Shown: piece by piece, positions 36,194-51,000 of the stretch
How positions within the stretch are numbered: the first letter of the stretch is position 1
Layout: each line of letters starts with the position of its first letter
Assembly (NCBI RefSeq): GCF_003334335.1
Contig: NZ_QOWQ01000006.1
Direction: 5' to 3' (one strand)
Source of the DNA: Escherichia coli
Lineage (GTDB): Bacteria; Pseudomonadota; Gammaproteobacteria; Enterobacterales; Enterobacteriaceae
DNA length: 64,000 bases
Translations under genes and position numbers: made by a program
Notes under the pieces: model-generated
Database searches by the model: none
What the model was told of the DNA's origin: nothing
Seen by the model: only the letters and a program-made list of their open reading frames with translations

Positions 36194-36235
36194 CCCCGTA
36201 CTGATTATGAAGAATAATCAGTACGGGGATTAATC
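36194..36235 (+). terminator. rho-independent terminator after gss
   Basis: ccccgtactgattatgaagaataatcagtacgggg perfect hairpin followed by A/T. Confidence 0.7.
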
Positions 36236-36469
36236 AAAATATTCAATATTTATATATTCCAATATTTATTCATTTCATATGTGAATATATTAACCAGTGG
36301 AATACCTGTGTTTTGATTATTTCTAAAGGTTTTGAATGAATGCTTATTGTCTGATACACAAGAAATAACACTCTTTTTATCGTTAAAAAATGATATTTCA
36401 CTTTGCCCATGCCGTTAAAGTCACTGATAATGCGTCCGTTCGTAAATTCAAAATGGCGTAATCTAATAT

Positions 36470-37969
36470 ATGCTAAATTTATTTGTTGGCCTTGATATAT
36501 ACACAGGGCTTTTGTTATTGCTTGCTCTGGCATTTGTGTTGTTCTACGAAGCAATCAATGGTTTTCATGACACGGCGAATGCGGTGGCAGCCGTTATTTA
36601 TACTCGTGCCATGCAACCACAACTTGCTGTGGTGATGGCGGCATTTTTTAACTTTTTTGGCGTGTTATTGGGCGGACTTAGCGTTGCCTATGCCATTGTC
36701 CATATGTTGCCAACCGATTTGTTGCTGAATATGGGGTCAACCCACGGCCTGGCGATGGTCTTTTCCATGCTGCTGGCGGCGATTATCTGGAACCTGGGAA
36801 CGTGGTTCTTCGGTTTACCGGCCTCCAGTTCGCACACCTTGATTGGTGCGATTATCGGCATCGGTTTAACCAACGCGCTGTTAACCGGCTCATCGGTGAT
36901 GGATGCGTTAAACCTGCGTGAAGTGACCAAAATTTTCTCCTCGCTGATTGTTTCCCCTATCGTCGGCCTGGTCATTGCGGGAGGCCTGATATTCCTGCTG
37001 CGACGCTACTGGAGCGGGACGAAAAAGCGTGACCGTATTCACCGCATTCCGGAAGATCGCAAAAAGAAAAAAGGCAAACGTAAACCGCCATTCTGGACGC
37101 GTATTGCGCTGATTGTTTCCGCTGCGGGCGTGGCGTTTTCGCACGGCGCGAACGACGGACAAAAAGGGATCGGCCTGGTAATGCTGGTACTGGTGGGGAT
37201 TGCCCCTGCTGGCTTCGTCGTCAATATGAATGCGTCCGGCTATGAAATTACCCGTACCCGCGATGCCGTTACCAACTTCGAACACTACCTGCAACAGCAT
37301 CCTGAACTGCCGCAGAAGTTGATTGCGATGGAACCTCCATTGCCTGCAGCATCGACTGATGGCACGCAAGTAACAGAGTTTCACTGTCATCCGGCAAATA
37401 CCTTTGATGCTATTGCGCGCGTTAAAACGATGCTGCCAGGCAATATGGAAAGTTACGAGCCGTTAAGCGTGAGTCAGCGCAGCCAGCTGCGCCGCATTAT
37501 GCTGTGCATCTCTGATACCTCCGCGAAGCTAGCGAAACTGCCAGGCGTCAGTAAAGAAGACCAGAACCTGCTGAAAAAACTTCGCAGCGATATGTTAAGC
37601 ACCATTGAGTACGCTCCGGTGTGGATCATCATGGCGGTAGCACTGGCGCTCGGCATTGGCACCATGATTGGCTGGCGTCGTGTAGCGATGACCATCGGTG
37701 AGAAGATTGGTAAGCGCGGCATGACGTATGCGCAAGGCATGGCGGCACAAATGACGGCGGCAGTGTCTATCGGTCTTGCCAGTTATATTGGGATGCCCGT
37801 CTCCACAACACACGTCCTCTCGTCTGCAGTTGCAGGGACGATGGTGGTGGACGGCGGTGGGTTACAGCGTAAAACGGTAACCAGCATCCTGATGGCGTGG
37901 GTATTTACTTTACCGGCGGCAATTTTTCTTTCTGGTGGGCTGTACTGGATAGCATTGCAGTTGATTTAA
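36470..37969 (+). CDS. pitB: low-affinity inorganic phosphate transporter PitB
   Basis: 499-aa PiT-family [42 protein letters not shown]... Confidence 0.95.
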
Positions 37970-37977
37970 CCTTCCTG

Positions 37978-38015
37978 AAAATGCCCGGTCCTGGCGATCG
38001 GGCATTTCCATTTTT
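37978..38015. terminator. bidirectional terminator between pitB and yghT
   Basis: aaatgcccggtcctggcgatcgggcattt hairpin followed by T-run. Confidence 0.7.
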
Positions 38016-38017
38016 GA

Positions 38018-38710
38018 CTAGTGATAACCACGCGCGGTCATAAAATCCGTAATCGCTTTTTCTGCATCAACCAACACCTGTTCCAGTGGCTGATTGGCAT
38101 CGATATCAACCAGTTGTGCACCACCAAAGGTTAACTGTGGCGTTATGGCAATCTTCCTCGCCAGCGATTCCCGTTTATGGTCGGGTTTACGTGCACAGGC
38201 AACTTCAAGGTCAACATTGAGTTTGATGACCAGATCAGGCTTATGGCTCGCCATCCAGTGAAACGCTTTACGTTCCTGGCTTGCCAGCCATGAGACAAAA
38301 CGACCACCTTCAACGTTAGGTGGGAACACCGTACCATCGTAAGCGCCAGGAATTTGGTCCTGAGGATAACGGTCGGTTAGAACAATTAACCCGCGACGAC
38401 GACAGGCAAGCATATGACGAAAGCGCAGTAAGCGACGGGCGACAAACGCTGTAATTACCAGCGCCGGAACTGGTCCAGGCAATTTTTTTGCTGTTTTCAC
38501 CTGATTTCGTTCAATTGTTTTATGTAAGGATTTTCCCATCAACGGTAATTTTGTCACTGCACGACCGACATTTCCGGCCTGTTTTCCTAAATGAACTCTT
38601 TCGGCAGCACCATATTTTTCGACAACGGTAATAAGATGTTCACACACCGTTGACTTGCCTGAACCATCGCTACCAATAACGGCAATTAATGGAGGTGTTA
38701 TTGACTGCAT
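38018..38710 (-). CDS. yghT: P-loop NTPase, predicted kinase-like protein YghT
   Basis: 230-aa ORF with N-terminal Walker [10 protein letters not shown]; shares TDRYPQ and RKPDH motifs with yghS and yghR. Confidence 0.85.
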
Positions 38711-38790
38711 GAATATATCCTTTAATTTAAATATCCATTAAAAATATTTATTTGGTTAATATGTTTTTATGAAAGCGTAATTCAGGTCAA

Positions 38791-38814
38791 TGTCACAATT
38801 AACCATTGTCACAA
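38791..38814. promoter_or_regulatory. direct repeat TGTCACAAT x2 in yghT/yghS divergent promoter region
   Basis: tgtcacaattaaccattgtcacaat; the second copy sits in the perfect palindrome ATTGTCACAAT. Confidence 0.3.
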
Positions 38815-38883
38815 TAAGGTTGAACGGATATTCTGAGCACGGACCACGTAATATTCAATACATTATTTACTGCCGGGTTTTTC

Positions 38884-39597
38884 GTGAATCAACGTAATAT
38901 GTCAATAATTAATTCCACGCCAGTGCGTGTTATTGCCATTGTAGGATGTGATGGTTCAGGTAAATCGACCCTCACGGCAAGCCTGGTAAATGAACTGGCA
39001 GCAAGAATGCCAACAGAACACATTTATCTCGGGCAATCGTCCGGGCGAATTGGCGAATGGATTTCACAGCTCCCTGTTATTGGCGCACCTTTTGGGCGTT
39101 ATCTGCGAAGTAAAGCGGCACATGTGCACGAAAAGCCCTCAACACCGCCTGGCAATATTACTGCACTGGTTATCTATCTGCTTTCCTGCTGGCGGGCGTA
39201 CAAGTTTCGCAAAATGTTGTGTAAAAGCCAGCAAGGCTTTCTGCTCATCACCGACCGCTACCCGCAGGTTGAAGTGCCGGGGTTTCGCTTTGATGGCCCG
39301 CAATTGGCAAAAACCACGGGCGGTAACGGTTGGATAAAAATGTTAAGGCAGCGCGAGCTGAAGCTGTACCAATGGATGGCATCTTATTTGCCCGTATTGT
39401 TGATTCGTCTTGGCATTGATGAACAAACCGCGTTTGCGCGTAAACCTGACCACCAACTGGCAGCGTTACAGGAAAAAATCGCCGTTACGCCGCAACTGAC
39501 ATTCAATGGCGCAAAGATCCTTGAACTGGATGGGCGACACCCCGCCGATGAAATTCTGCAAGCGTCACTACGCGCAATTCACGCCGCGCTTTCCTGA
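38884..39597 (+). CDS. yghS: P-loop NTPase, predicted kinase-like protein YghS
   Basis: 237-aa ORF (GTG start) with Walker A GCDGSGKST; paralog of yghT and yghR. Confidence 0.85.
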   Translation: MNQRNMSIINSTPVRVIAIVGCDGSGKSTLTASLVNELAARMPTEHIYLGQSSGRIGEWISQLPVIGAPFGRYLRSKAAHVHEKPSTPPGNITALVIYLLSCWRAYKFRKMLCKSQQGFLLITDRYPQVEVPGFRFDGPQLAKTTGGNGWIKMLRQRELKLYQWMASYLPVLLIRLGIDEQTAFARKPDHQLAALQEKIAVTPQLTFNGAKILELDGRHPADEILQASLRAIHAALS

Positions 39598-39628
39598 TCA
39601 CCAAAATGGATAGGGGATGATTTAACGA

Positions 39629-40387
39629 ATGGATGCACTACAAACTCAAACTGTTAATAGTACAACCGCGCCGCAGCCCAACTACATTCCGGGGCTGATT
39701 GCGGTGGTCGGGTGTGATGGCACCGGTAAATCCACACTGACCACCGACCTGGTGAAATCGCTGCAACAACACTGGCAAACCGAGCGGCGCTATCTGGGGC
39801 TGCTCTCCGGCGAAGACGGCGACAAAATCAAACGATTGCCGTTGGTTGGCGTCTGGCTGGAACGGCGACTGGCGGCCAAATCCTCGAAAACCCAAAGCAT
39901 GAAAACCAAATCTCCGGCGCTATGGGCGGCGGTGATTATGTACTGCTTCTCGCTGCGAAGAATGGCGAATCTACGCAAGGTTCAGCGACTGGCGCAAAGT
40001 GGCGTTCTGGTGGTCAGCGATCGCTTCCCGCAGGCTGAAATTTCGGGCTTTTATTATGATGGACCGGGGATTGGCGTCGAACGTGCGACCGGGAAAATCA
40101 GCATGTTTCTGGCGCAGCGCGAACGGCGTTTATACCAACAAATGGCGCAATATCGCCCGGAATTAATTATTCGCCTGGGCATTGATATTGAGACTGCCAT
40201 CTCCCGCAAGCCTGACCATGACTATGCCGAGCTGCAGGACAAAATCGGTGTCATGTCGAAGATTGGCTATAACGGCACAAAAATTCTTGAGATTGATTCC
40301 AGAGCGCCCTACAGCGAAGTGCTGGAACAGGCACAGAAGGCGGTTTCTCTGGTTGCCATCGTTTCTGACCGCCGAAGTTTAACTTAA
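39629..40387 (+). CDS. yghR: P-loop NTPase, predicted kinase-like protein YghR
   Basis: 252-aa ORF with Walker A GCDGTGKST and the paralog motifs SDRFPQ, SRKPDH. Confidence 0.85.
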   Translation: MDALQTQTVNSTTAPQPNYIPGLIAVVGCDGTGKSTLTTDLVKSLQQHWQTERRYLGLLSGEDGDKIKRLPLVGVWLERRLAAKSSKTQSMKTKSPALWAAVIMYCFSLRRMANLRKVQRLAQSGVLVVSDRFPQAEISGFYYDGPGIGVERATGKISMFLAQRERRLYQQMAQYRPELIIRLGIDIETAISRKPDHDYAELQDKIGVMSKIGYNGTKILEIDSRAPYSEVLEQAQKAVSLVAIVSDRRSLT

Positions 40388-40432
40388 GGCTGGCGGGATA
40401 CTTTTTACTATCAACGATAAGGTCAGGCTGAA

Positions 40433-41782
40433 TTGGCGGGTTTTAACATCAAACATTGGTTTGCAGATGGCGCGTTTCGCACCATTATTCGCAATAGCGC
40501 CTGGTTAGGCTCCAGTAATGTCGTGAGCGCCTTGCTGGGTCTGTTGGCGCTCTCGTGTGCCGGTAAAGGGATGACGCCCGCCATGTTTGGCGTACTGGTG
40601 ATTGTGCAATCGTACGCCAAGTCGATCAGCGATTTTATTAAGTTTCAGACATGGCAACTGGTGGTTCAGTACGGAACACCAGCATTAACCAACAATAATC
40701 CGCAGCAATTCCGCAATGTCGTCTCATTTTCCTTCTCGCTGGATATCGTCAGCGGCGCGGTGGCGATTGTCGGTGGCATTGCCTTACTGCCATTCCTTTC
40801 CCATTCATTAGGTCTGGATGACCAAAGTTTTTGGCTGGCAGCGCTCTATTGCACGCTCATTCCTTCAATGGCTTCCTCCACGCCGACCGGCATTCTGCGT
40901 GCGGTAGATCGCTTCGATTTAATTGCTGTACAGCAGGCGACGAAACCTTTTCTGCGCGCAGCGGGGAGCGTCGTAGCCTGGTATTTTGACTTTGGTTTTG
41001 CGGGTTTTGTTATTGCCTGGTACGTGTCGAATCTGGTTGGCGGCACCATGTACTGGTGGTTTGCCGCGCGCGAATTACGCCGCCGAAATATCCATAACGC
41101 CTTCAAATTGAATCTGTTTGAGTCTGCCCGATACATTAAAGGCGCGTGGAGTTTTGTCTGGTCAACCAACATTGCCCACTCCATCTGGTCGGCGCGTAAC
41201 TCGTGCAGCACAGTGTTGGTGGGGATCGTGTTAGGACCCGCTGCCGCCGGGTTATTTAAAATCGCCATGACATTCTTCGACGCCGCCGGAACGCCAGCGG
41301 GTTTGCTGGGTAAAAGTTTTTACCCAGAGGTGATGCGTTTAGATCCGCGCACCACCAGACCGTGGTTGTTAGGTGTGAAGTCCGGTTTACTGGCGGGCGG
41401 AATCGGTATTCTGGTGGCGCTCGCGGTGTTGATCGTCGGCAAGCCGCTCATTTCGCTGGTGTTTGGCGTTAAGTATCTCGAAGCGTATGACCTGATTCAG
41501 GTGATGCTGGGCGCAATTGTGATTTCGATGCTGGGCTTCCCTCAGGAGTCATTGCTATTGATGGCGGGAAAACAGCGCGCTTTTCTCGTGGCGCAAACCA
41601 TCGCCTCAATCGGCTACATCGTATTGCTGTTCATGTTCTGTCATCTGTTTGGTGTGCTGGGAGCAGCGTTTGCTTACTTCGGTGGGCAATGTCTGGACGT
41701 GGCGCTCTCGTTAATTCCAACCTTAAAGGCATTTTTTCAGCGCCATTCCTTGCTTTATAACGCAGCCGGAGAGAAATCCTGA
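40433..41782 (+). CDS. yghQ: MOP-superfamily (Wzx-like) flippase YghQ, full length
   Basis: 449-aa polytopic ORF; start codon uncertain (track start is TTG); stop overlaps the next gene start (TGATG). Confidence 0.8.
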   Translation: MAGFNIKHWFADGAFRTIIRNSAWLGSSNVVSALLGLLALSCAGKGMTPAMFGVLVIVQSYAKSISDFIKFQTWQLVVQYGTPALTNNNPQQFRNVVSFSFSLDIVSGAVAIVGGIALLPFLSHSLGLDDQSFWLAALYCTLIPSMASSTPTGILRAVDRFDLIAVQQATKPFLRAAGSVVAWYFDFGFAGFVIAWYVSNLVGGTMYWWFAARELRRRNIHNAFKLNLFESARYIKGAWSFVWSTNIAHSIWSARNSCSTVLVGIVLGPAAAGLFKIAMTFFDAAGTPAGLLGKSFYPEVMRLDPRTTRPWLLGVKSGLLAGGIGILVALAVLIVGKPLISLVFGVKYLEAYDLIQVMLGAIVISMLGFPQESLLLMAGKQRAFLVAQTIASIGYIVLLFMFCHLFGVLGAAFAYFGGQCLDVALSLIPTLKAFFQRHSLLYNAAGEKS

Positions 41783-42606
41783 TGATGAGAAAATATTTCC
41801 CGCTTGAGGCGAGCGAGCGTCTATTTGTTGCGATTGAAGAAGATGATGTCGTTGATGCACAGGTTAGTTTGCCGCCGACTATTGCACTAAGTTGTACCAC
41901 CGAAATCATTCATGATAATTACGCGTTATGCCTGCAATTCTGGCTCAATGGCGTTGATCGTCAGGAGTTACTGCGTTTAGTTCGCAAACAAGCCAAAGGC
42001 GATGAGCTGACTGCTGATGAGCGCAAACAATTTAAATACATGCGAGCGCGCTACAAGCACCTGCGTTTTGCGCAACGGCTGTATTTAAAGAAGCATCAGG
42101 CCGGATTTTTATTCGGCAAAACGACCGTTTTTCTGGGGCGTTTTCAGGACGGCTTTCGTAACGGTAAGAAAAATATTGTGTCGTATTACGGCAACCTGTT
42201 ACGGATTTATTTAAGCTCTCCGGTCTGGTCGTTGGTGAACTATTCATTACGCCATAGCCAGTTAGAAAGCGTAAGCAGTTTTATTGCCTATCGGCAAAAG
42301 CAAATGCATACCCTGAAAGAGATTATTGCCAAACCGCGACTAACCGGTAGGGAATTTCATGATGTGCGAAAAATCATCAGCCAGCAGGTTTCTTATTACG
42401 ACACCTTAAGATCGCTTGATCCTGAAAATAAAGAGGCGTTACAGATATCCCGCTTCCTCGCCGCCATTAATGGCCTGATGGGAGATAAACACGACGACAT
42501 GGTGGCGGATGATATGGAAAACCGCCAGTCGTATGATGCACCGGTGGCGCTGGATAGCGATATTCGTCAGCGCTTAGAGCTGCTGATTTCGCGTTTTCCG
42601 CTATAG
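41782..42606 (+). CDS. hypothetical cytoplasmic protein (274 aa), coupled to yghQ
   Basis: ORF MMRKYFPLEASERLFVAIEEDD...; 1-nt overlap with the yghQ stop; no motif I can recognise. Confidence 0.6.
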   Translation: MMRKYFPLEASERLFVAIEEDDVVDAQVSLPPTIALSCTTEIIHDNYALCLQFWLNGVDRQELLRLVRKQAKGDELTADERKQFKYMRARYKHLRFAQRLYLKKHQAGFLFGKTTVFLGRFQDGFRNGKKNIVSYYGNLLRIYLSSPVWSLVNYSLRHSQLESVSSFIAYRQKQMHTLKEIIAKPRLTGREFHDVRKIISQQVSYYDTLRSLDPENKEALQISRFLAAINGLMGDKHDDMVADDMENRQSYDAPVALDSDIRQRLELLISRFPL

Positions 42607-42614: not shown

Positions 42615-43178
42615 ATGATGTCATCTCGTTTGATTATTGCGTTGATTATCATGCTCTTAGCCCCGGGTGTGCAGGCACACAATTTCGTCACTGGCAAAAC
42701 GGTTACCCCTGTTTATATCCAGGAAGGCGGCGAGCTGCTTCTGAATAGCGACGACGAAATTCACTACCAAAAGTGGAACAGCACACAATTAGCGGGAAAA
42801 GTCCGCATTATTCAGTATATCGCCGGGCGTAAGTCGGCGAAGAAAAAGAACTCACTGTTAATTAAAGCGGTTGAAGCGGCAAACTTTCCGCAGGATCGTT
42901 TTCAGCCCACCACCATTGTGAACACCGATGATGCCATCTTTGGTACTGGCTATTTTGTTGTTGGCAAAATCGAAAAAAATAAACGCCGCTATCCGTGGGC
43001 GCAATTCGTTATTGACGGCAATGGACAGGGACGCGTTGCCTGGCGCTTGCCGGAGCAGAGTTCAACCATTCTGGTGCTGAATAAAGCCGGGCAAATTCAG
43101 TGGGCAAAGGACGGCAGCCTGACGCCGGAAGAGGTAGATCATGTCATTGCGTTGGCGCAGAAACTGATCAATGAATAA
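42615..43178 (+). CDS. periplasmic YtfJ/HI0045-like protein
   Basis: 187-aa ORF with signal peptide MMSSRLIIALIIMLLAPGVQA and motifs (AGKVRIIQYIAGR, TTIVNTDDAI, QWAKDGSLTPEEV) that I recall from YtfJ. Confidence 0.65.
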   Translation: MMSSRLIIALIIMLLAPGVQAHNFVTGKTVTPVYIQEGGELLLNSDDEIHYQKWNSTQLAGKVRIIQYIAGRKSAKKKNSLLIKAVEAANFPQDRFQPTTIVNTDDAIFGTGYFVVGKIEKNKRRYPWAQFVIDGNGQGRVAWRLPEQSSTILVLNKAGQIQWAKDGSLTPEEVDHVIALAQKLINE

Positions 43179-43208: not shown

Positions 43209-44279
43209 ATGAAGCTGGTTGAACACTACATCATGCGTGGTACGCGCCGTCTGGTGCTGATTATCGTCGGTTTTCTGATCTTTATTTTCGCCAGCTACTC
43301 CGCACAGCGTTATCTGACCGAAGCGGCAAATGGGACATTAGCTCTTGATGTTGTGCTGGATATCGTTTTCTACAAAGTACTGATTGCACTGGAGATGTTG
43401 TTACCTGTTGGTCTGTATGTGTCAGTTGGCGTGACGCTAGGGCAGATGTATACCGACTCGGAAATTACCGCTATCTCTGCGGCGGGGGGCAGTCCGGGAC
43501 GCTTGTACAAAGCCGTTCTTTATCTGGCGATACCGCTAAGTATTTTTGTCACCCTTCTGTCGATGTATGGTCGTCCGTGGGCTTATGCGCAGATTTATCA
43601 ACTGGAGCAGCAGTCGCAGTCGGAGCTGGATGTTCGCCAGTTGCGGGCAAAGAAATTTAACACTAACGATAACGGACGAATGATCCTTTCGCAGACGGTT
43701 GATCAGGATAATAATCGCCTGACTGACGCGCTGATTTATACTTCTACTGCCAATCGAACCCGCATTTTCCGCGCCCGTTCGGTTGATGTGGTTGACCCAT
43801 CACCCGAGAAACCGACCGTTATGTTGCACAACGGCACTGCCTATCTTATCGATCATCAGGGGCGTGATGACAACGAACAGATCTACCGTAATCTGCAATT
43901 ACATCTGAATCCGCTGGATCAAAGCCCTAACGTCAAACGCAAAGCGAAATCGGTCACGGAGCTGGCGCGCTCCGTCTTTCCAGCCGATCATGCCGAACTG
44001 CAATGGCGGCAAAGCCGTGGCCTGACCGCATTGTTGATGGCGCTGCTGGCCATTTCATTAAGTCGGGTAAAACCGCGGCAAGGGCGATTTTCAACGTTAT
44101 TGCCACTGACGTTGCTGTTTATTGCCATTTTTTATGGCGGTGACGTCTGCCGTACGCTGGTGGCTAACGGCGCGATTCCCCTCATTCCTGGTTTGTGGTT
44201 AGTACCCGGACTCATGCTAATGGGCCTGCTGATGCTGGTCGCACGCGACTTCTCTTTGCTGCAGAAATTTTCCCGATGA
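43209..44279 (+). CDS. LptF/LptG-family (YjgP/YjgQ) permease, first of pair
   Basis: 356-aa ORF; YTDSEITAISAAG and KPRQGRFSTLLP resemble the LptF motifs YTESEIT and NPRQGR; multiple TM segments with a large periplasmic loop. Confidence 0.75.
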   Translation: MKLVEHYIMRGTRRLVLIIVGFLIFIFASYSAQRYLTEAANGTLALDVVLDIVFYKVLIALEMLLPVGLYVSVGVTLGQMYTDSEITAISAAGGSPGRLYKAVLYLAIPLSIFVTLLSMYGRPWAYAQIYQLEQQSQSELDVRQLRAKKFNTNDNGRMILSQTVDQDNNRLTDALIYTSTANRTRIFRARSVDVVDPSPEKPTVMLHNGTAYLIDHQGRDDNEQIYRNLQLHLNPLDQSPNVKRKAKSVTELARSVFPADHAELQWRQSRGLTALLMALLAISLSRVKPRQGRFSTLLPLTLLFIAIFYGGDVCRTLVANGAIPLIPGLWLVPGLMLMGLLMLVARDFSLLQKFSR

Positions 44280-45355
44280 ATGTTTTCAGCCGCTATTTAA
44301 TCCGTCATCTCTTTCTCGGTTTTGCCGCCGCCGCAGGGCTATTGCTGCCGCTTTTTACCACCTTCAACCTGATTAACGAACTGGATGATGTCAGCCCGGG
44401 CGGTTATCGCTGGACTCAGGCGGTGCTGGTGGTGCTAATGACCTTACCGCGCACACTGGTCGAACTTTCGCCATTTATCGCCTTATTGGGAGGGATTGTC
44501 GGCCTGGGGCAGTTATCGAAAAACAGTGAGCTTACCGCCATTCGCAGCATGGGGTTTTCTATCTTCCGTATTGCACTGGTGGCGCTGGTTGCAGGGATAT
44601 TGTGGACTGTTTCGTTAGGCGCGATAGATGAGTGGGTAGCGTCGCCATTACAGCAACAGGCGTTGCAAATCAAATCGACCGCCACCGCGTTGGGGGAGGA
44701 CGATGACATTACCGGCAATATGCTGTGGGCCAGGCGTGGTAATGAATTTGTGACGGTGAAATCGCTGAACGAGCAGGGCCAGCCGGTGGGCGTGGAGATT
44801 TTTCATTATCGCGACGATCTCTCGCTCGAATCCTACATTTATGCACGCAGTGCCACCATTGAAGACGACAAAACGTGGATCCTGCATGGTGTGAATCATA
44901 AAAAATGGCTGAATGGCAAAGAAACGCTGGAAACATTAGATAATCTTGCCTGGCAATCGGCCTTCACCAGTATGGATCTTGAAGAGTTATCAATGCCGGG
45001 CAATACTTTTTCTGTCCGTCAGCTTAATCATTACATCCATTATTTGCAGGAAACCGGGCAACCCAGCAGCGAATACCGCCTTGCACTGTGGGAAAAACTG
45101 GGGCAACCCATCCTGACCCTGGCGATGATTTTGCTGGCTGTGCCGTTTACCTTTAGCGCCCCGCGCTCGCCAGGGATGGGTAGCCGTCTCGCTGTAGGTG
45201 TCATCGTTGGCTTACTCACCTGGATCAGCTATCAAATCATGGTCAATCTGGGATTGCTATTTGCGTTGAGCGCACCTGTTACCGCGCTCGGTTTACCGAT
45301 AGCGTTTGTGCTGGTGGCGTTGAGCCTGGTGTATTGGTATGACAGACAACATTAA
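44276..45355 (+). CDS. LptF/LptG-family (YjgP/YjgQ) permease, second of pair
   Basis: Start at MNVFSRYLIRHLFLGF via ATGA overlap with the upstream stop; LptG-like motifs (ELTAIRSMGFS, RSPGMGSRLAVG); the track ORF is extended 27 codons upstream. Confidence 0.75.
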   Translation: MNVFSRYLIRHLFLGFAAAAGLLLPLFTTFNLINELDDVSPGGYRWTQAVLVVLMTLPRTLVELSPFIALLGGIVGLGQLSKNSELTAIRSMGFSIFRIALVALVAGILWTVSLGAIDEWVASPLQQQALQIKSTATALGEDDDITGNMLWARRGNEFVTVKSLNEQGQPVGVEIFHYRDDLSLESYIYARSATIEDDKTWILHGVNHKKWLNGKETLETLDNLAWQSAFTSMDLEELSMPGNTFSVRQLNHYIHYLQETGQPSSEYRLALWEKLGQPILTLAMILLAVPFTFSAPRSPGMGSRLAVGVIVGLLTWISYQIMVNLGLLFALSAPVTALGLPIAFVLVALSLVYWYDRQH

Positions 45356-45356
45356 A

Positions 45357-45383
45357 CCCGCCGTGGCGCAACACCACGGCGGG
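45357..45383. terminator. bidirectional hairpin between the permease operon and the SPT-like gene
   Basis: cccgccgtgg-cgcaaca-ccacggcggg inverted repeat. Confidence 0.6.
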
Positions 45384-45459
45384 CTCACATTACTGCTTCA
45401 GAGTAGCAAATGCCTGAATGATGGCATCGATTTGCTCACGACTGTGAGCAGCGTTTACG

Positions 45460-46569
45460 CTACAGCGCAGCAGCGTGATGCCTGCAGGCGCGGCAGGTGG
45501 CAGGTGGCAGGATAAGATTCACATAAACGCCCAGCGAAATAAGCTCGCGCCAGATGCGTAAACCGTCCTCTTTCGAACCGATTATTACCGGCACTACCGG
45601 GCTAATATGTGAACTTAACTCATAACCCAGTTTTTGCAGACCGTCATACAGATGGTTGGCATTATCCATCAGCTTTTGCCGCAGCTCTGGTTGTGTGGCA
45701 ATAGTTCTTAACGACGAGCGCACGGTCGCAATGCAGGACGGAGAAGGAGAGGCGGTAAAAATATACGGGCGGCTGCCGTAGCGCAGCACTTCCATCGCTT
45801 CCGAACCGACAGCAAAACCGCCAATCGAGGCCAGACTTTTACTGAAGGTGCCAACGATAATATCCACATCATCTTCAACGCCGACAGCTTCAGCCAGTCC
45901 GCGCCCCGTTGCGCCTAACACGCCAAACGAATGCGCTTCATCGACAATCAAATAACCACCGAGACGACGTTTGATATCAACAATTTCCGCTAACGGCGCA
46001 ACGTCACCGAGCATGCTGTAGATACCCTCAACGATGATAATCGCCTCTTTCGCCCGTTCACCGAGGCGAACCATGCGCCGTTCCAGATCTTTAGCATCGT
46101 TATGGCGGAAACGAATAATTTCCGCGCCACCGAGAGAACAGGCGTCATAAATACTGGCGTGGCTGTCGGCATCCAGTAACACCACGGCGTTATGGTCGGC
46201 AAGTGCGCTGATGACGCCTAAATTAGCGGTATAACCGGTTGAAAAAACGATAGCGGTAGGGCGATTGAAAAACTCGGCAATCTCTTTCTCTAACGCCAGG
46301 TGCGGCGCATAACTGCCGTTTGCCATACGAGAACCGGTGGTGCCGGTACCTTGGGCCGCTAACGCGGCCTGACCTTCGCTGATGGCATCATGATTAAAGG
46401 TTAAACCGAGATAATTATTGGTCCCGGCCAGAATCACTTTTTTATTGCCGATCCGGCCTTCGGTGGCGGAATACACTTCATCAATACAGGTGCCAAACGG
46501 TGTTAACCCGTTGTCACTAAATTGCAGTCGCTCGCCAGCAAGGCGCGCATATTTATCGTATAGCCCCAT
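45460..46569 (-). CDS. serine palmitoyltransferase-like alpha-oxoamine synthase (PLP-dependent), 3' end apparently frameshifted
   Basis: 369-aa ORF with GTFSKS PLP-lysine motif and class-II aminotransferase fold; C-terminus TCRACRHHAAAL is atypical, and an alternative frame restores a canonical end at the TAA at 45390-45392. Confidence 0.8.
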   Translation of the reverse strand: MGLYDKYARLAGERLQFSDNGLTPFGTCIDEVYSATEGRIGNKKVILAGTNNYLGLTFNHDAISEGQAALAAQGTGTTGSRMANGSYAPHLALEKEIAEFFNRPTAIVFSTGYTANLGVISALADHNAVVLLDADSHASIYDACSLGGAEIIRFRHNDAKDLERRMVRLGERAKEAIIIVEGIYSMLGDVAPLAEIVDIKRRLGGYLIVDEAHSFGVLGATGRGLAEAVGVEDDVDIIVGTFSKSLASIGGFAVGSEAMEVLRYGSRPYIFTASPSPSCIATVRSSLRTIATQPELRQKLMDNANHLYDGLQKLGYELSSHISPVVPVIIGSKEDGLRIWRELISLGVYVNLILPPATCRACRHHAAAL

Positions 46570-46817
46570 TATTTATTCTCCAGCCATGGAAGTAGAGTTT
46601 CCATTAATTGCGCAGGGGTTTTGACATCCAGCAGAATATTAATAGGAATGGAAATATCGAATCTGTCTTCCAGCATCATTAAGAGATCCATCACTTTGAT
46701 CGACTCCAGGCCAAGATCGTTGACGAGATCGCTGTCGGGCTTAATTTCCACACCGTTTTCGACCAAATCCTGTAAACAGGAAAGGATGTAATCCATTACT
46801 ATTTCACGATTTACCAT
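46569..46817 (-). CDS. acyl carrier protein (phosphopantetheine-binding)
   Basis: 82-aa acidic ORF with DLGLESIKVMDL Ser-attachment motif; 1-nt overlap with the downstream SPT-like start. Confidence 0.8.
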   Translation of the reverse strand: MVNREIVMDYILSCLQDLVENGVEIKPDSDLVNDLGLESIKVMDLLMMLEDRFDISIPINILLDVKTPAQLMETLLPWLENK

Positions 46818-46848: not shown

Positions 46849-47763
46849 TCAAAATAGCCCGTTGCGTAATGCGTGTTCCAGGCTAATCCCGGGAAACCAA
46901 TTAATATCTTCAGAAATACGGTTATTACTTGCCGACCAGTCGGCGTGGGTTAATTCACGAATTTTCGAGCGGGTCAGCATAGGTTCTTTACCTGCCAGGC
47001 GACTCAACGCGGTACTGATATCCGCAAGGCCGGTGAGTACCGGCAGAGGAATGCCAACCATTCGCACGGAACCGCAACGGGCGTCGGCGGCAAGTTGCTG
47101 TACGCGTTGCCAGTCATAGCCGCCGGCGACGCCATCGCATAATTCATAGGTTTGCGTCTGTATAGTTTCGGCGCTTAACCACTGACCCACTGCTTGCGCG
47201 AAATCGGTGACGTGCAGAAAAGAGAGCTGTGTATCTGGCGCACCAAGTCGTGGCAGCAGGCCGCGCAGCATCCAGTCAAACAGCGGTTTTAACTCTTTAT
47301 CGCCGGGACCATACACGGCTGTCGGGCGAAAAACGCCCAGCGTAATTTCGTCCGCCATTGCTGCCAGTCGTTGCTCGGCGACGTATTTGGATTTTGCATA
47401 CCAGGAGAGCTCGGGATGGCGCGCCGCCAGCGAAGAGATAAACAGAAAACGTTGGCAAAAGCCGCTCTCTTTTGCTGCTTGCATCAGGCGCAGGCTGCCG
47501 TCAACGTTACAGCGGGTGAAAATCTCTTCTTTGTGCCCGCGCACTTGCCCGGCGCAATGGACCACTACGCTGGCTCCGGCAACCAGCTCGCTAAGTGAAT
47601 GAGTATCTTCCAGCGAACCGCGCACCCAGGTGAGATTATCATTGACGTGAGCGCGGGCAGTACGCGTCAATGCGCGAACGTGAAAGCCGCGGGCGAGCAG
47701 GTTATCGATAATATATTTACCGATAAACCCGGTAGCGCCCGTCACCGCGACAGTTTGATTCAT
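46849..47763 (-). CDS. NAD(P)-dependent epimerase/dehydratase-family reductase (candidate 3-ketosphinganine/ceramide reductase)
   Basis: 304-aa ORF with VTGATGFIGKYI Rossmann motif and YAKSK catalytic dyad; 4-nt overlap with the upstream adenylase gene. Confidence 0.8.
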   Translation of the reverse strand: MNQTVAVTGATGFIGKYIIDNLLARGFHVRALTRTARAHVNDNLTWVRGSLEDTHSLSELVAGASVVVHCAGQVRGHKEEIFTRCNVDGSLRLMQAAKESGFCQRFLFISSLAARHPELSWYAKSKYVAEQRLAAMADEITLGVFRPTAVYGPGDKELKPLFDWMLRGLLPRLGAPDTQLSFLHVTDFAQAVGQWLSAETIQTQTYELCDGVAGGYDWQRVQQLAADARCGSVRMVGIPLPVLTGLADISTALSRLAGKEPMLTRSKIRELTHADWSASNNRISEDINWFPGISLEHALRNGLF

Positions 47764-49481
47764 GCCAGGGATTCCTGCACATTAAGACTGGCAGCATAAG
47801 CCTTCTGATAACGTTTTTTCGCTTCCGCACGGGCAGGCTTGCCGGAGGACGTTCGGGGAATACTGTGGGGCGGCAACAGATCGATAGCCGCGGTCACGCC
47901 AAATTCGCTTTGGATCCGTGCCGCCAGCGCGTGGATAAGCTGCCCGCGACGTTCTTCGTCGCTGATCCGACACTGGATCTGCAAAATGATTTTTTCCTGG
48001 GCGGTAACAAAAGCAATCGCATCGCCAGAATGAATTTCCGGTTCCTGTTCCGCTATATATTCAATATCCTGCGGCCAGATATTACGGCCACGAATAATAA
48101 TCAGATCTTTAATGCGTCCGGTGACATACAGATAACCGTCCAGCAGATAACCGAGGTCGCCGGTGTCTAACCAGCCCGTCGCGGCAATCTCGTCTTGCGA
48201 AACCTGGTCGCCAAAGTAACCGCTCATCAGACTGGGACCGGAGATGCAAATATGGCCTACCACACGTTCCGCGACCGGCATACCTGCTTCATTGCGGATT
48301 TCAATACCATGTTCCGGCAACGCTTTGCCGCAGTTGACGAAAGTCGATACGGCGCGTGTCTCTGCACCCGGCGCGACGGCTTTACCCTGATATTCGAGGA
48401 TGTCGCGATCCACTTCGTTAACCACAACCCCGGAGGCTTCATCAGAGAAGCTGACAGCCAGCGCATTTTCTGCCAGTCCGTAGCACGGCATGAAAGTTTT
48501 ATTGTCAAAGTTAACCTGACGGAAACATTCAGCGAATTGATGGAGTTGTTCTGCGGAGATGGGTTCTGCACCAATACCAGCGACGCGCCAGCAGGAAAGA
48601 TCCAGTTCAGCGAGATCTTTTTCATTCACGCGGCGCTGGCACAATTCATAGCCAAACGGCGGCGCAACGGAAACGGTGCCGCGATTTTTACTGATCAATT
48701 TAAGCCATTGCAGAGGACGCATGGCAAAATCCTGAGTGCGCAAATAATCTACTGAAAGCTGCGTGGCGACGGGGGTCAGGAGAAAGCCGACCAGTCCCAT
48801 ATCATGGTAGAAAGGCAGCCAGGAGACGCAGCGGTCGCCAGGGCGTAATTTAATGCCGTCGTGGCTTATAGCACGTAGATTAGCCATCACTTCGCGATGG
48901 GTGATAATGACGCCACGGGGAAAACGGGTGCTGCCGGAGGTGTACTGGAGGTAGGCGATATCGTTCGGAACTGGACGCTGGAGCGCAACATCGGCTTCCG
49001 GTAATGCCTTAAACCAGGCGTGGCTTAAAACATGTAATTCGGGGTTGTCATGCGTCGCGGCATTGACCAGTGGCAACCACTCATCACCAGTGATAATGGC
49101 TGCGGGCTGGCAACTTGCCAGTAAACCCTGCAATTTGGCGCTCCAGGAATCCCGCTGACCAACGCCCATTGGAATCGCCAACGGGACGGCGACTAAGCCG
49201 GCATACTGGCAGGCAAAAAAAGCCTCTACGAACTCGCTACTTGTTTCGGCAATCAGTGCCACGCGATCGCCTTTTTTCAGGTTCAGCGATAACAACCGCT
49301 TCGCACCAGCTTCGGCACGTGCTTTTAACGTCTGATATTCCAGTTGATCTTCAAGTTGGCAACGTCTGTCATAAAAATTCATTCCGGCGCTACTCAGAGC
49401 GGCGTAGTCCAAAGCATCAACAAGCGTTGGAAAATCGGCATAGCGCATAGGTAGGGAATGCGTAAAGATTTTATTAGACAT
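47760..49481 (-). CDS. fatty acyl-AMP ligase / acyl-ACP synthetase-like adenylating enzyme
   Basis: About 573 aa with AMP-binding core YTSGSTRFPRGV and TGDLGY motif; start uncertain (track starts at GTG 49490, ATG at 49481). Confidence 0.8.
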   Translation of the reverse strand: MSNKIFTHSLPMRYADFPTLVDALDYAALSSAGMNFYDRRCQLEDQLEYQTLKARAEAGAKRLLSLNLKKGDRVALIAETSSEFVEAFFACQYAGLVAVPLAIPMGVGQRDSWSAKLQGLLASCQPAAIITGDEWLPLVNAATHDNPELHVLSHAWFKALPEADVALQRPVPNDIAYLQYTSGSTRFPRGVIITHREVMANLRAISHDGIKLRPGDRCVSWLPFYHDMGLVGFLLTPVATQLSVDYLRTQDFAMRPLQWLKLISKNRGTVSVAPPFGYELCQRRVNEKDLAELDLSCWRVAGIGAEPISAEQLHQFAECFRQVNFDNKTFMPCYGLAENALAVSFSDEASGVVVNEVDRDILEYQGKAVAPGAETRAVSTFVNCGKALPEHGIEIRNEAGMPVAERVVGHICISGPSLMSGYFGDQVSQDEIAATGWLDTGDLGYLLDGYLYVTGRIKDLIIIRGRNIWPQDIEYIAEQEPEIHSGDAIAFVTAQEKIILQIQCRISDEERRGQLIHALAARIQSEFGVTAAIDLLPPHSIPRTSSGKPARAEAKKRYQKAYAASLNVQESLA

Positions 49482-49857
49482 ATACACCACGAAAAAATTG
49501 GATATCCAAAATAAAATGACAATAATGCGGTGGATTATATAGGCATAAAAGATAAATGAGATAGTATTTTCATCAGTGTGAAAATGAACATTGATTTAAA
49601 TAATGAGTTTGAGTTTTTTTGTTTTTATTGTGAATGATATTTAATTTATGAATATATTAAGAAGAAGCCTTGTCCGGTCGCCTTAAATCGACAAAAGGCA
49701 TTGTGGCGCTTCTGTGTAGTCTCTGACCTTATCGTAATCATTAATAAATACTATTTATTCGTCGTTTGTATTCATTGGGTTGATTATTAAGGTGCCGTTC
49801 GTTGCTGTTGCAACCTGTTTGTCACCGTTAATTATTTGTTACCCACAGAACAGAACT

Positions 49858-51000
49858 ATGGAATGCGATCTGCTGATGATTAAAATTGAAAAAGTAATTA
49901 ATAAAAATGACCTTAAGGCATTTATCGCTTTTCCGTCATCACTTTATCCCGACGATCCAAACTGGATACCCCCTTTATTCATTGAACGCAACGAGCATTT
50001 GTCTGCGAAAAATCCGGGGACGGACCATATCATCTGGCAGGCGTGGGTAGCAAAAAAAGCGGGGCAGATAGTTGGGCGTATTACCGCGCAAATAGATACC
50101 TTGCACCGCGAGCGTTACGGCAAAGATACCGGTCATTTCGGCATGATTGACGCCATTGATGATCCGCAGGTTTTTGCCGCGTTGTTTGGCGCAGCGGAAG
50201 CGTGGTTGAAGTCACAAGGTGCAAGTAAGATCAGCGGTCCTTTCAGCCTGAATATCAATCAGGAAAGCGGATTACTGATTGAAGGTTTTGACACACCACC
50301 CTGTGCGATGATGCCACACGGCAAACCGTGGTATGCCGCGCATATTGAACAACTGGGTTATCACAAAGGCATTGATTTACTGGCGTGGTGGATGCAGCGA
50401 ACCGATCTCACTTTCTCTCCGGCGCTAAAAAAACTGATGGATCAGGTGCGCAAAAAGGTGACCATTCGCTGCATCAATCGTCAGCGGTTTGCCGAAGAGA
50501 TGCAGATCCTGCGTGAGATTTTCAACTCTGGCTGGCAGCACAACTGGGGATTTGTGCCGTTTACCGAACATGAATTCGCGACCATGGGCGATCAACTTAA
50601 ATATCTGGTGCCGGACGATATGATCTATATCGCTGAGATTGATTCTGCACCCTGCGCGTTTATTGTCGGCTTGCCGAACATCAACGAGGCGATTGCCGAT
50701 CTGAACGGATCGCTCTTTCCCTTCGGCTGGGCAAAATTGCTGTGGCGTTTGAAAGTCAGCGGTGTGCGAACTGCGCGAGTACCGCTGATGGGCGTGCGCG
50801 ACGAGTATCAGTTCAGCCGCATCGGCCCGGTGATTGCGCTGTTATTGATTGAAGCCTTACGCGATCCGTTTGCCCGCCGGAAGATCGATGCGCTGGAGAT
50901 GTCATGGATCCTCGAAACCAATACAGGCATGAATAACATGCTGGAACGCATTGGGGCGGAGCCGTACAAGCGTTACCGATTGTATGAAAAGCAGATTTAA
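49858..51000 (+). CDS. yghO: YghO, intact (candidate N-acyltransferase; pseudogene in K-12)
   Basis: About 380 aa from MECDLLMIKIEK (track ORF starts at TTG 49780); divergent from the lipid operon; start uncertain. Confidence 0.7.
   Translation: MECDLLMIKIEKVINKNDLKAFIAFPSSLYPDDPNWIPPLFIERNEHLSAKNPGTDHIIWQAWVAKKAGQIVGRITAQIDTLHRERYGKDTGHFGMIDAIDDPQVFAALFGAAEAWLKSQGASKISGPFSLNINQESGLLIEGFDTPPCAMMPHGKPWYAAHIEQLGYHKGIDLLAWWMQRTDLTFSPALKKLMDQVRKKVTIRCINRQRFAEEMQILREIFNSGWQHNWGFVPFTEHEFATMGDQLKYLVPDDMIYIAEIDSAPCAFIVGLPNINEAIADLNGSLFPFGWAKLLWRLKVSGVRTARVPLMGVRDEYQFSRIGPVIALLLIEALRDPFARRKIDALEMSWILETNTGMNNMLERIGAEPYKRYRLYEKQI

What the first reader, a model, noticed from the sequence alone, without database searches (positions are those of the whole stretch)
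38018..40387. Three paralogous P-loop proteins (YghT/YghS/YghR) flanking the lipid/export genes
All three have an N-terminal Walker A (GSDGSGKST / GCDGSGKST / GCDGTGKST), a shared (T/S)DR(Y/F)PQ motif and an RKPDH motif, at 230-252 aa. They lack an ABC signature (LSGGQ), so they look like small-molecule kinases rather than transporter ATPases. yghS and yghR lie directly upstream of yghQ on the same strand with 30-45 bp gaps. One speculative role is phosphorylation of a lipid intermediate or head group; anionic phosphorylated ceramides are made by kinases in the Caulobacter system.
Basis: inference. Interest (0 to 1): 0.55.

Follow-up and report, generated by a model that had tools for sequence, protein, structure and literature searches.

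The report
Three kinase-like genes of E. coli's sphingolipid locus
yghT, yghS and yghR are three real, related genes for thymidylate-kinase-shaped enzymes that sit with ceramide-synthesis and lipid-export genes in many bacteria, so they probably add phosphate to a still unidentified E. coli sphingolipid rather than making DNA precursors.

Summary
yghT (38018-38710, -), yghS (38884-39597, +) and yghR (39629-40387, +) are 230/237/252-aa paralogues, 33-40% identical. Each has a Walker A, a (T/S)DR(Y/F)PQ motif and RKPDH, and none has an ABC signature.

All 178 copies examined in 78 loci keep every catalytic-type residue. Natural S+R and T+R fusions exist, so a heteromer of active kinases is likely.

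Among 77 analysed loci from other species, the commonest neighbours are an uncharacterised 274-aa protein (49 loci) and the MOP flippase YghQ (46). The spt-acpR-cerR-aasR ceramide genes lie within 10 kb in 25 loci, in several arrangements. Relatives are fused to flippases and glycosyltransferases.

Most likely the three act as head-group phosphotransferases of the E. coli-type sphingolipid pathway. They are unrelated to the Caulobacter ceramide kinase CpgB. The substrate is not determined. A resemblance to the archaeal polyphosphate kinase PPK3 is only a lead.

K-12 keeps the three genes but has lost the pathway downstream.

The parts
38018..38710 (-). yghT, 230 aa, thymidylate-kinase (TMPK)-fold P-loop paralogue. 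Walker A at nt 38648-38674, TDRYPQ at 38360-38377, RKPDH at 38177-38191.
   Evidence: ORF; motifs; alignment A1; annotated yghT in RefSeq.
38711..38883 (.). 173-bp, 29.5% GC divergent intergenic region between yghT and yghS, with a promoter-like site at 38806-38834 (+).
   Evidence: GC content; consensus scan, which is not evidence of function. yghS rose 3.1-fold on SlyA overexpression and is listed as overlapping the H-NS regulon (PMC5797941).
38884..39597 (+). yghS, 237 aa, TMPK-fold paralogue and first gene of the + strand operon. Walker A at 38944-38970, TDRYPQ at 39250-39267, RKPDH at 39439-39453.
39629..40387 (+). yghR, 252 aa, TMPK-fold paralogue. Walker A at 39710-39736, SDRFPQ at 40016-40033, RKPDH at 40205-40219.
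40433..41782 (+). yghQ, full-length 449-aa MOP/Wzx-type flippase (truncated by IS5 in K-12).
   Evidence: NCBIfam NF007773, weak; RefSeq annotation; K-12 truncation. Present in 46 of 77 related loci. Relatives of the kinase are fused to this type of flippase (P0219, P0263).
41782..42606 (+). Uncharacterised 274-aa basic protein ('Hyp274'), the most frequent neighbour of the kinase paralogues. It has a weak, unconfirmed CHAD-like signal.
   Evidence: 49 of 77 loci; invariant R/K/H residues; Pfam CHAD below threshold; hhalign against YgiF CHAD negative.
42615..43178 (+). YtfJ-family protein.
   Evidence: TIGR01626, 212 bits, above cut-off; in 20 related loci.
43209..44279 (+). LptF paralogue (LptF2).
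   Evidence: TIGR04407, 318 bits. The Caulobacter homologues are required for sphingolipid transport (bioRxiv 10.64898/2026.04.12.717747).
44276..45355 (+). LptG paralogue (LptG2), last gene of the operon.
   Evidence: TIGR04408, 308 bits.
45353..45387 (.). 16-bp-stem G+C-rich hairpin between the convergent lptG2 and spt genes (terminator-like). A second hairpin at 37979-38007 separates pitB and yghT.
45390..46569 (-). spt (serine palmitoyltransferase). In this window it is frameshifted by a 7-bp tandem duplication at 45492-45505; the ORF as called is 45460-46569, 369 aa.
   Evidence: RefSeq 'spt'.
46569..46817 (-). acpR, specialised acyl carrier protein.
   Evidence: PMC9386255.
46849..47763 (-). 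epi/cerR, NAD-dependent reductase of ceramide synthesis.
47760..49490 (-). aasR, fatty acyl-AMP ligase / acyl-ACP synthetase (the RefSeq start gives 562 aa).
49780..51000 (+). yghO (aca/bCerS-type N-acyltransferase); the RefSeq start is about 49858.
   Evidence: PMC9386255.

Best explanation
[quoted passage not shown] They most likely work together as a heteromeric set.

Their proposed partners are the MOP flippase YghQ and the 274-aa protein Hyp274. Together these would form the head-group decoration and export arm of the E. coli-type sphingolipid locus.

The proposed sequence, all at the cytoplasmic face of the inner membrane and all inferred:
1. The kinases use ATP to phosphorylate the ceramide-derived lipid, or the precursor of its head group.
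2. YghQ flips the product across the inner membrane.
3. LptF2/LptG2 extract it towards the outer membrane.

The retained active site is that of enzymes that phosphorylate a phosphate monoester: a P-loop Asp, a DR arginine clamp and a basic RK lid. The favoured chemistry is therefore to extend an already phosphorylated acceptor into a phosphoanhydride, rather than to phosphorylate a hydroxyl first.

Shown: paralogy, fold, motif conservation, gene linkage and domain fusions.
Inferred: kinase activity, heteromer formation, a lipid or head-group substrate, and the order of steps.
For: Fold:
- The YghR model has pLDDT 89.
- A family profile hits PDB TMPKs at E 3e-11 to 1e-6. The P-loop, the S-x-x-R helix, the DRY motif and the lid region all align.

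All paralogues look active:
- All complete copies among 178 copies from 78 loci keep GxDGxGK[ST], G57, G61, D131-R132-x-P134, E165, D196-H197 and K205, and over 95% keep R111, Q135, D144-G145 and R193-K194.

Heteromer:
- Natural fusions exist of S-type with R-type (P0121, P0043) and of T-type with R/S-type (P0122, P0123, P0029).
- Two to four paralogues are adjacent in most loci.

Linkage, counted over 77 analysed loci:
- Hyp274 is present in 49 and YghQ in 46.
- spt and epi are present in 25 and aasR in 24.
- lptF2, lptG2 and ytfJ are each present in 20.
- The ceramide genes sit upstream in Serratia, Mangrovibacter and Cedecea, downstream in E. coli and Hafnia, and directly after the trio in Erwinia endophytica, Dyella and Luteibacter. 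The linkage is therefore maintained through rearrangement.

Fusions to envelope-pathway proteins:
- Relatives are fused to MOP flippases (P0219, P0263; NF007773 at 5e-61 for P0263) and to a GT4 glycosyltransferase (P0247).

Taxonomy:
- The family is found in Sphingomonadaceae, Acetobacteraceae, Zymomonas, Azotobacter, Myxococcales and Enterobacterales. These groups are known or predicted sphingolipid producers (PMC9386255, PMC11324152).

Lipid-phosphate enzymes recur in related loci:
- An LmtA-like lipid-phosphate O-methyltransferase in 12 loci (1e-31, below the curated cut-off).
- A PAP2 phosphatase in 9 loci.
- An OlsC/LpxO-like hydroxylase in 9 loci.
- A dgkA paralogue in 8 loci.

Other points:
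- The E. coli locus contains no CpgB-type kinase, so a kinase role is otherwise unfilled.
- The proteins are basic, with pI 9.6-9.9.
- yghS to lptG2 is one tight operon, with gaps of 45 bp or less.
Against: - No biochemical or lipidomic data exist for these proteins or for any E. coli sphingolipid product.
- The wider family also occurs next to Wzx flippases in ordinary Wzx/Wzy polysaccharide loci with no sphingolipid genes, for example L079. The family is therefore tied to flippases in general, and the substrate could be a lipid-linked glycan or a soluble head-group precursor.
- Two residues that contact dTMP in TMPKs are retained: the P-loop Asp and the helix Arg, R111. A nucleotide-like acceptor is not excluded.
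The co-occurrence fractions are not a census.
- About 560 complete E. coli genomes, including K-12, carry yghTSR without the spt operon.
Confidence: 0.5

Rival explanations
1. They are kinases that modify a lipid-linked glycan or supply a phosphorylated sugar or acid building block for whatever the neighbouring Wzx-type flippase exports. The ceramide genes are merely adjacent members of an envelope island, and the sphingolipid is not the substrate.
For: - The commonest neighbour apart from Hyp274 is the flippase (46 of 77 loci).
- The two-domain relatives (nucleotidyltransferase plus kinase) lie directly after a Wzx gene in a locus with GT4, Wzy and sulfotransferase genes (L079).
- Fusions to flippase and GT4 proteins exist.
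- In Oecophyllibacter the gene sits among GT4 and epimerase genes.
Against: - The E. coli-type operon has no glycosyltransferase, Wzy or initiating transferase.
- Its remaining genes are LptF2/G2, YtfJ and the ceramide genes.
- Linkage to spt survives several rearrangements across orders.
Confidence: 0.17
2. They are true nucleotide monophosphate kinases, as RefSeq's 'dTMP kinase' label says. They would provide or recycle nucleotides, for example for CDP- or NDP-activated head groups.
For: - TMPKs are the best structural and sequence relatives.
- The P-loop Asp and the Arg equivalent to the thymine-O4 contact are conserved.
- In Sphingomonadaceae a CofC/MobA-like nucleotidyltransferase is adjacent.
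Against: - TIGR00041 scores are 24-32 bits against a curated cut-off of 83.
- Pfam Thymidylate_kin is not significant.
- The Arg that aligns with the FPNR arginine of TMPKs falls in a Gly-rich LGxxSGxxG segment, and the position of the base-stacking Phe is variable.
- Three co-conserved, fused paralogues are not expected for a housekeeping NMP kinase. E. coli has its own essential tmk elsewhere (established knowledge).
Confidence: 0.12
3. They form a PPK3-like heteromeric polyphosphate kinase, or polyphosphate-dependent kinase, with Hyp274 as a CHAD-like polyphosphate-binding partner. They would make or use polyphosphate independently of, or as a donor for, the lipid pathway.
For: - In Sulfolobus PPK3, two adjacent TMPK-like paralogues share an operon with a CHAD protein (PMC12995831).
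- Hyp274 relatives give weak Pfam CHAD hits, and two are named CHAD proteins in UniRef.
- The phosphate transporter gene pitB is adjacent in 6 loci.
Against: - No paralogue has lost the DRX arginine, unlike rPPK3.
- No PPX or SixA gene was seen among the recurrent neighbours.
- The family profile matches canonical TMPKs better than 2plr (3e-11 against 2.3e-5).
- hhalign of Hyp274 against YgiF-type CHAD is negative.
- E. coli already has PPK1 (established knowledge).
Confidence: 0.1
4. They are ATPases that energise YghQ or the LptF2/LptG2 permeases, which have no ATPase gene of their own in the operon.
For: A Walker A motif is present, the genes share an operon with the permeases, and no lptB paralogue is present.
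Against: - There is no ABC signature, and the ABC_tran match covers only the P-loop.
- The fold is an NMP kinase with a lid, not an ABC or RecA-like ATPase.
- In Caulobacter, LptF2G2 use the housekeeping LptB (bioRxiv 10.64898/2026.04.12.717747).
Confidence: 0.04

Closest known systems
Thymidylate kinase (Tmk; Pfam PF02223, TIGR00041)
   Different: - Scores are far below the family cut-offs.
- It has its own invariant motifs: PQ after DR, DGP, and RKPDH.
- The dTMP phosphate-binding Arg is absent.
- It occurs as 2-4 adjacent or fused paralogues next to flippase and lipid genes.
PPK3, the heteromeric polyphosphate kinase of Sulfolobus acidocaldarius (Saci_2019/2020; PMC12995831)
   Same: TMPK-superfamily paralogues that were annotated as dTMP kinases, are encoded side by side and act as a hetero-oligomer. 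A CHAD protein is in the operon, and Hyp274 is possibly CHAD-like.
   Different: - All Ygh paralogues keep the DRX arginine, so there is no regulatory dead subunit.
- There are no PPX or SixA neighbours.
- The CHAD relation is unconfirmed.
- The context is flippase and sphingolipid genes, not polyphosphate metabolism.
CpgB (CCNA_01218), the bacterial ceramide kinase of Caulobacter crescentus
   Same: A kinase encoded in a proteobacterial sphingolipid locus that also has a MOP flippase and LptF2/G2.
   Different: It belongs to an unrelated family, the DAG-kinase catalytic type with a GGDG motif (PMC10331486). The Caulobacter locus has no YghR-type gene, and the E. coli locus has no CpgA-D genes.
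Two-domain nucleotidyltransferase-kinase proteins of Wzx/Wzy polysaccharide loci (e.g. P0168; uncharacterised)
   Same: The C-terminal domain is a clear homologue (E 1e-30 to 1e-46), and the gene abuts a Wzx flippase.
LpxK (lipid A 4'-kinase)
   Same: A P-loop kinase that phosphorylates a membrane lipid at the cytoplasmic face before export. This is an analogy from established knowledge only.
   Different: It was not recovered among the listed sequence or fold matches, and no homology is claimed.

Membership tests
Thymidylate kinase (dTMP kinase) | NMP-kinase fold with P-loop, DRX motif and lid | tested here: met
Thymidylate kinase (dTMP kinase) | Score above the curated family threshold (TIGR00041 cut-off 83.25 bits; Pfam PF02223 significance) | tested here: not met
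   25.8, 24.3 and 32.3 bits. The best Pfam Thymidylate_kin i-E value is 1.3e-2.
Thymidylate kinase (dTMP kinase) | Conserved dTMP-binding residues (phosphate-binding Arg of the FPxR segment, base-stacking Phe, O4-binding Arg, P-loop acid) | tested here: inconclusive
   In the alignment to P. falciparum TMPK, the P-loop Asp and the helix Arg (R111) are kept in over 97% of copies. The FPNR Arg aligns to a Gly-rich segment, and the Phe position is variable. The assignment of roles to TMPK residues rests on my own knowledge of TMPK structures.
ABC transporter ATPase | LSGGQ signature and a full ABC_tran domain | tested here: not met
PPK3 (TMPK-derived polyphosphate kinase) | Two or more adjacent TMPK-like paralogues besides the canonical tmk | tested here: met
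   Three adjacent paralogues here, and 2-4 in most related loci.
PPK3 (TMPK-derived polyphosphate kinase) | A regulatory subunit in which the DRX arginine is replaced | tested here: not met
   R132 is present in all complete copies of all three classes (72/72 T, 50/50 S, 54/54 aligned R).
PPK3 (TMPK-derived polyphosphate kinase) | Operon with polyphosphate genes (PPX, SixA, CHAD) | tested here: inconclusive
   No PPX or SixA among the conserved neighbours. Hyp274 gives only sub-threshold CHAD hits and no hhalign match to YgiF CHAD.
PPK3 (TMPK-derived polyphosphate kinase) | Polyphosphate kinase or polyphosphate-dependent ADP kinase activity; placement in the PPK3 clade | not testable with these tools
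   This needs enzyme assays and a TMPK-superfamily phylogeny that includes Saci_2019/2020. The profile E-value to the cPPK3 homologue 2plr (2.3e-5) is weaker than to canonical TMPKs.
CpgB-type bacterial ceramide kinase (DAGK catalytic family) | DAG-kinase catalytic domain with GGDG motif | tested here: not met
   No DAGK family among the Pfam or NCBIfam hits, and the fold is NMP-kinase. The CpgB features are from PMC10331486.
CHAD domain (for the partner protein Hyp274) | Significant match to PF05235 or to a known CHAD profile | tested here: inconclusive
   - 4 of 18 members hit CHAD at E<=0.1, best 3.3e-3.
- P0273 hits at i-E 0.13 and 0.4.
- Precomputed PF05235 is recorded on 3 of 120 homologues, and two carry CHAD names in UniRef.
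- hhalign against YgiF CHAD gives a probability below 1%.
- A PDB profile search finds no CHAD.

The most novel reading that the evidence does not exclude
The three TMPK-derived kinases, together with the basic helical protein Hyp274, act as a lipid-directed counterpart of the archaeal PPK3. They would successively phosphorylate a ceramide phosphate to build a pyro- or oligophosphate head group. That head group would be flipped by a MOP flippase, a class that normally handles pyrophosphate-linked lipids, and exported by LptF2G2. The result would be a highly anionic, LPS-like sphingolipid in E. coli and many other Proteobacteria.
Probability: 0.1. Interest if true: 0.9.

Novelty: new variant of a known kind. 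Interest (0 to 1): 0.62.

Why it matters
yghR, yghS and yghT are long-standing genes of unknown function in E. coli K-12. RefSeq labels yghS and yghT as dTMP kinase, and yghR as ATP-binding protein or nucleoside/nucleotide kinase family protein.

Placing them in the sphingolipid locus explains why K-12 genetics has said nothing about them. K-12 keeps the three genes but has lost everything from the 3' end of yghQ to aasR through an IS5-associated deletion.

About 77% of complete E. coli genomes carry the full locus. No paper found in the searches made here describes the lipid it makes.

The Caulobacter head-group enzymes (CpgA-D) are absent from the E. coli-type locus. The YghT/S/R-Hyp274-YghQ module is therefore the obvious candidate for a second, chemically different way of decorating bacterial ceramides. 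That makes the open question 'what is the E. coli sphingolipid?' directly testable with defined deletions.

It would also be a second example, after PPK3, of thymidylate-kinase paralogues taken over for a new phosphotransfer role.

Tried and rejected
- Anti-phage defence role: PADLOC gave only P-loop-level noise.
- ABC ATPase: no signature and a different fold.
- Homology to the Caulobacter ceramide kinase: rejected after reading PMC10331486. The Caulobacter locus inventory has no YghR-type gene.
- CHAD identity of Hyp274:
  - A by-eye resemblance prompted Pfam scans, which gave weak hits.
  - A PDB profile search found nothing.
  - NCBIfam found nothing.
  - Two hhalign tests against E. coli YgiF CHAD were negative.
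  - The question is left open, not accepted.
- Structured RNA or repeats in the region: no Rfam family in 36000-50000. The only notable inverted repeat (38649-38686 / 38932-38969) is simply the homologous Walker-A coding segments of the divergent yghT and yghS.
- Overlapping ORFs 38990-39337 (+) and 39638-39895 (-) lie inside yghS and yghR in other frames and were treated as spurious.
- Amphipathic-helix scan: no strong membrane-binding helix found, so uninformative.
- Literature searches for yghR/S/T, or for thymidylate-kinase-like proteins in bacterial sphingolipid papers, found no functional study.
- AFDB Foldseek returned only uncharacterised family members.
Full report
**Observation**

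They align over their whole length. YghS and YghR are 36% and 34% identical to YghT, and YghS-YghR are 40% identical. Cross-paralogue tblastn scores are 146-186 bits.

The quoted motifs are all present:
- [18 protein letters not shown] and GCDGTGKST.
- TDRYPQ, TDRYPQ and SDRFPQ.
- RKPDH in all three.

No LSGGQ-type signature is present. The gaps are 31 bp (yghS-yghR) and 45 bp (yghR-yghQ). The stretch is 100% identical to yghT/S/R of E. coli K-12 and many other strains, and is found in 4744 of 5426 complete E. coli genomes.

One detail is wrong. The genes do not flank the lipid and export genes. yghT is divergent from an operon that starts with yghS and yghR.

**Surroundings**

The window is a non-K-12 type of E. 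coli locus, identical in this stretch to strain 214-4. Downstream of yghR come:
- a full-length MOP flippase gene, yghQ (449 aa);
- a 274-aa gene with no family assignment, here called Hyp274;
- a YtfJ-family gene;
- LptF and LptG paralogues.

Overlaps or gaps between these genes are at most 45 bp. Strong hairpins bound the unit at 37979-38007 and 45353-45387. The 173-bp yghT-yghS spacer is 29.5% GC and has one promoter-like site.

Convergent with the operon are spt, acpR, epi/cerR and aasR, followed by yghO. These five are the published dihydroceramide genes of E. coli B/BL21 (PMC9386255). A 2026 preprint draws the E. coli UTI89 locus beside the Caulobacter one and shows that Caulobacter LptF2/G2 are needed for sphingolipid transport and use LptB. 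Neither paper, nor any other found, discusses yghR/S/T.

In K-12, yghQ is cut by IS5 and everything from Hyp274 to aasR is missing, while yghT/S/R and yghO remain. The spt operon and the export genes are each present in about 4180 of 5426 genomes.

**What the proteins are**

Sequence libraries give only sub-threshold dTMP-kinase matches (TIGR00041 at 24-32 bits against a cut-off of 83) and P-loop-level Pfam hits.

An exhaustive profile search found 2153 cluster representatives at E<=1e-3 and 140 at E<=1e-30, so this is a real and broad family.

With the 53-sequence profile, PDB thymidylate kinases score E 3e-11 to 1e-6. The alignment pairs these features:
- the P-loop, including its Asp;
- an S-x-x-R helix;
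- the DRY motif with DR(Y/F);
- the lid with the RKPDH region.

The arginine of the TMPK FPxR segment falls in a conserved Gly-rich LGxxSGxxG segment instead, and the base-stacking position is variable. The catalytic and phosphate-clamping apparatus of a TMPK is therefore kept, while the dTMP pocket is only partly kept.

**Are all three active?**

I extracted 178 copies from 78 loci and aligned them to the family profile. All complete copies of the T, S and R classes keep G28, D30, G31, G33, K34, G57, D131, R132, P134, E165, D196, H197 and K205, and over 95% keep G61, R111, Q135, D144, G145, R193 and K194. There is no degenerate paralogue.

Natural fusion proteins join S-type to R-type (P0121, P0043) and T-type to R/S-type (P0122, P0123, Oecophyllibacter P0029). 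Two to four paralogues are adjacent in most loci. This argues for a hetero-oligomer of active subunits. All three are basic, with pI 9.6-9.9.

**Co-occurrence**

A scan of one genome per GTDB species returned 74 distinct loci. After clustering all ORFs of 77 analysed loci, the families that accompany the kinases were:

| Neighbour | Loci |
|---|---|
| Hyp274 | 49 |
| YghQ-type flippase | 46 |
| spt | 25 |
| epi | 25 |
| aasR | 24 |
| LptF2 | 20 |
| LptG2 | 20 |
| YtfJ | 20 |
| yghO | 14 |

The ceramide genes are placed differently in different taxa:
- downstream of lptG2 in E. coli, Hafnia, Citrobacter, Shimwellia and Erwinia persicina;
- upstream of yghT in Serratia liquefaciens, Mangrovibacter, Cedecea and Tatumella;
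- directly after the trio in Erwinia endophytica, Pantoea, Rosenbergiella, Dyella and Luteibacter;
- also adjacent in beta- and gammaproteobacterial metagenome-assembled genomes.

Linkage is thus preserved through rearrangement.

In Sphingomonadaceae and Acetobacteraceae, ceramide genes are known to be scattered (PMC9386255, PMC11324152). There the kinases keep YghQ and Hyp274 as neighbours.

Other recurrent neighbours are lipid-phosphate enzymes:
- an LmtA-like lipid A 1-phosphate O-methyltransferase relative (12 loci, 1e-31, below cut-off);
- an OlsC/LpxO-like acyl hydroxylase (9 loci);
- a PAP2 phosphatase (9 loci);
- a dgkA paralogue (8 Enterobacterales loci);
- a CofC/MobA-like nucleotidyltransferase (8 Sphingomonadaceae loci).

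Caveat: the loci come from one peptide pattern and the best 80 hits, so these are not census figures.

**The wider family**

One such gene overlaps the end of a Wzx gene in a locus with GT4, Wzy, sulfotransferase and PAPS-synthesis genes (L079). Others are fused to a MOP flippase (P0219, P0263) or to a GT4 glycosyltransferase (P0247).

The family as a whole is therefore tied to flippase-dependent envelope pathways. The single-domain, multi-paralogue branch with Hyp274 is the one tied to ceramide genes.

**Mechanism**

The best reading is that YghT/S/R are ATP-dependent phosphotransferases acting together on the head group, or head-group precursor, of the E. coli-type sphingolipid. They would act before YghQ flips the lipid and LptF2G2 extract it.

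The E. coli locus lacks the Caulobacter decoration genes. CpgB is a GGDG DAG-kinase-type enzyme. CpgA, CpgC and CpgD are Tam41-like, CDP-alcohol-transferase-type and nucleotidyltransferase-type enzymes. The kinase slot is therefore otherwise empty.

The retained site is that of an enzyme that phosphorylates a phosphate monoester. A dgkA paralogue accompanies the locus in eight genera. I therefore favour extension of a phosphorylated acceptor into a phosphoanhydride. This step is inference only.

**The PPK3 lead**

Hyp274 has repeated H-x-x-R-K and G-x-x-(Q/H)-D helical motifs. Four of 18 relatives hit Pfam CHAD weakly (best 3.3e-3). Three of 120 homologues carry a precomputed PF05235 hit, and two are named CHAD proteins in UniRef.

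Against the lead:
- A direct scan gives only i-E 0.13 and 0.4.
- hhalign against E. coli YgiF CHAD, alone and as a 12-sequence profile, finds nothing.
- No PPX or SixA neighbour exists.
- No paralogue lacks the arginine.
- The family profile prefers canonical TMPKs to 2plr.

I keep it as a lead with low probability.

**Verdict**

The Caulobacter kinase is not a relative, and the substrate remains open.

The proteins are a new, uncharacterised variant within the thymidylate-kinase superfamily. RefSeq's 'dTMP kinase' label is probably a misannotation.

Noticed in passing
window 45492-45505 (inside spt, - strand): A 7-bp tandem duplication (GGCAGGT) frameshifts the 3' end of spt, giving a 369-aa ORF with an aberrant C-terminus instead of 390 aa. 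None of the 4104 complete E. coli genomes that carry this segment has it (best identity 94/101). It is a private mutation, a sequencing error or an edit, and this strain's SPT may be defective.
   Followed up: yes
window 41782-42606 (+): The 274-aa gene after yghQ has no Pfam or NCBIfam family. It is nonetheless the most constant neighbour of the kinase paralogues (49 of 77 loci). It is basic (pI 9.3), with invariant R88, K92, H105, H193, R196, K197, H237 and D238. CHAD-like signals are weak and unconfirmed.
   Followed up: partly
L083 (E. coli K-12 MG1655) 7534-9728, compared with window 40433-49490: In K-12 an IS5 element truncates yghQ, and the eight genes from Hyp274 to aasR are missing, while yghT/S/R and yghO remain. 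K-12 therefore carries only remnants of the sphingolipid locus.
   Followed up: yes
L079 5721-9482; proteins P0168, P0219, P0263, P0247: A large related family of about 500-aa proteins joins a MenT/ANT-like nucleotidyltransferase domain to the YghR-like kinase domain. The genes lie directly after Wzx flippase genes in polysaccharide loci, and some are fused to the flippase or to a GT4 glycosyltransferase. Their function is unknown.
   Followed up: partly
L031 6440-7180, L034 7070-7807, L027 5960-6502, L020 7287-8024, L003 1416-1778: Related loci repeatedly carry an LmtA-like lipid-phosphate O-methyltransferase, a PAP2 phosphatase, an OlsC/LpxO-like acyl hydroxylase and, in Enterobacterales other than E. 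coli, a second dgkA-type kinase next to yghO.
   Followed up: partly
window 42615-43178 (+): A YtfJ-family paralogue (above the TIGR01626 cut-off) sits between Hyp274 and lptF2 and travels with lptF2/lptG2 in 20 loci. The E. coli locus has no LptC2, so this protein might take a periplasmic role in export.
   Followed up: no
window 38711-38883: The divergent yghT-yghS spacer is only 29.5% GC. In the literature yghS rises 3.1-fold on SlyA overexpression and is listed as overlapping the H-NS regulon, which suggests the operon is normally silenced.
   Followed up: partly
window 36470-37969 (+) and loci L006, L007, L010, L038: The phosphate transporter gene pitB lies next to yghT in E. coli, Hafnia, Pseudocitrobacter and Citrobacter, but not in other genera. 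This may be coincidental or may relate to phosphate supply.
   Followed up: no
window 38649-38686 and 38932-38969: A 38-nt inverted repeat (76% complementary) spans the divergent starts of yghT and yghS. It reflects the homologous Walker-A coding segments of the two paralogues, not a regulatory palindrome.
   Followed up: yes
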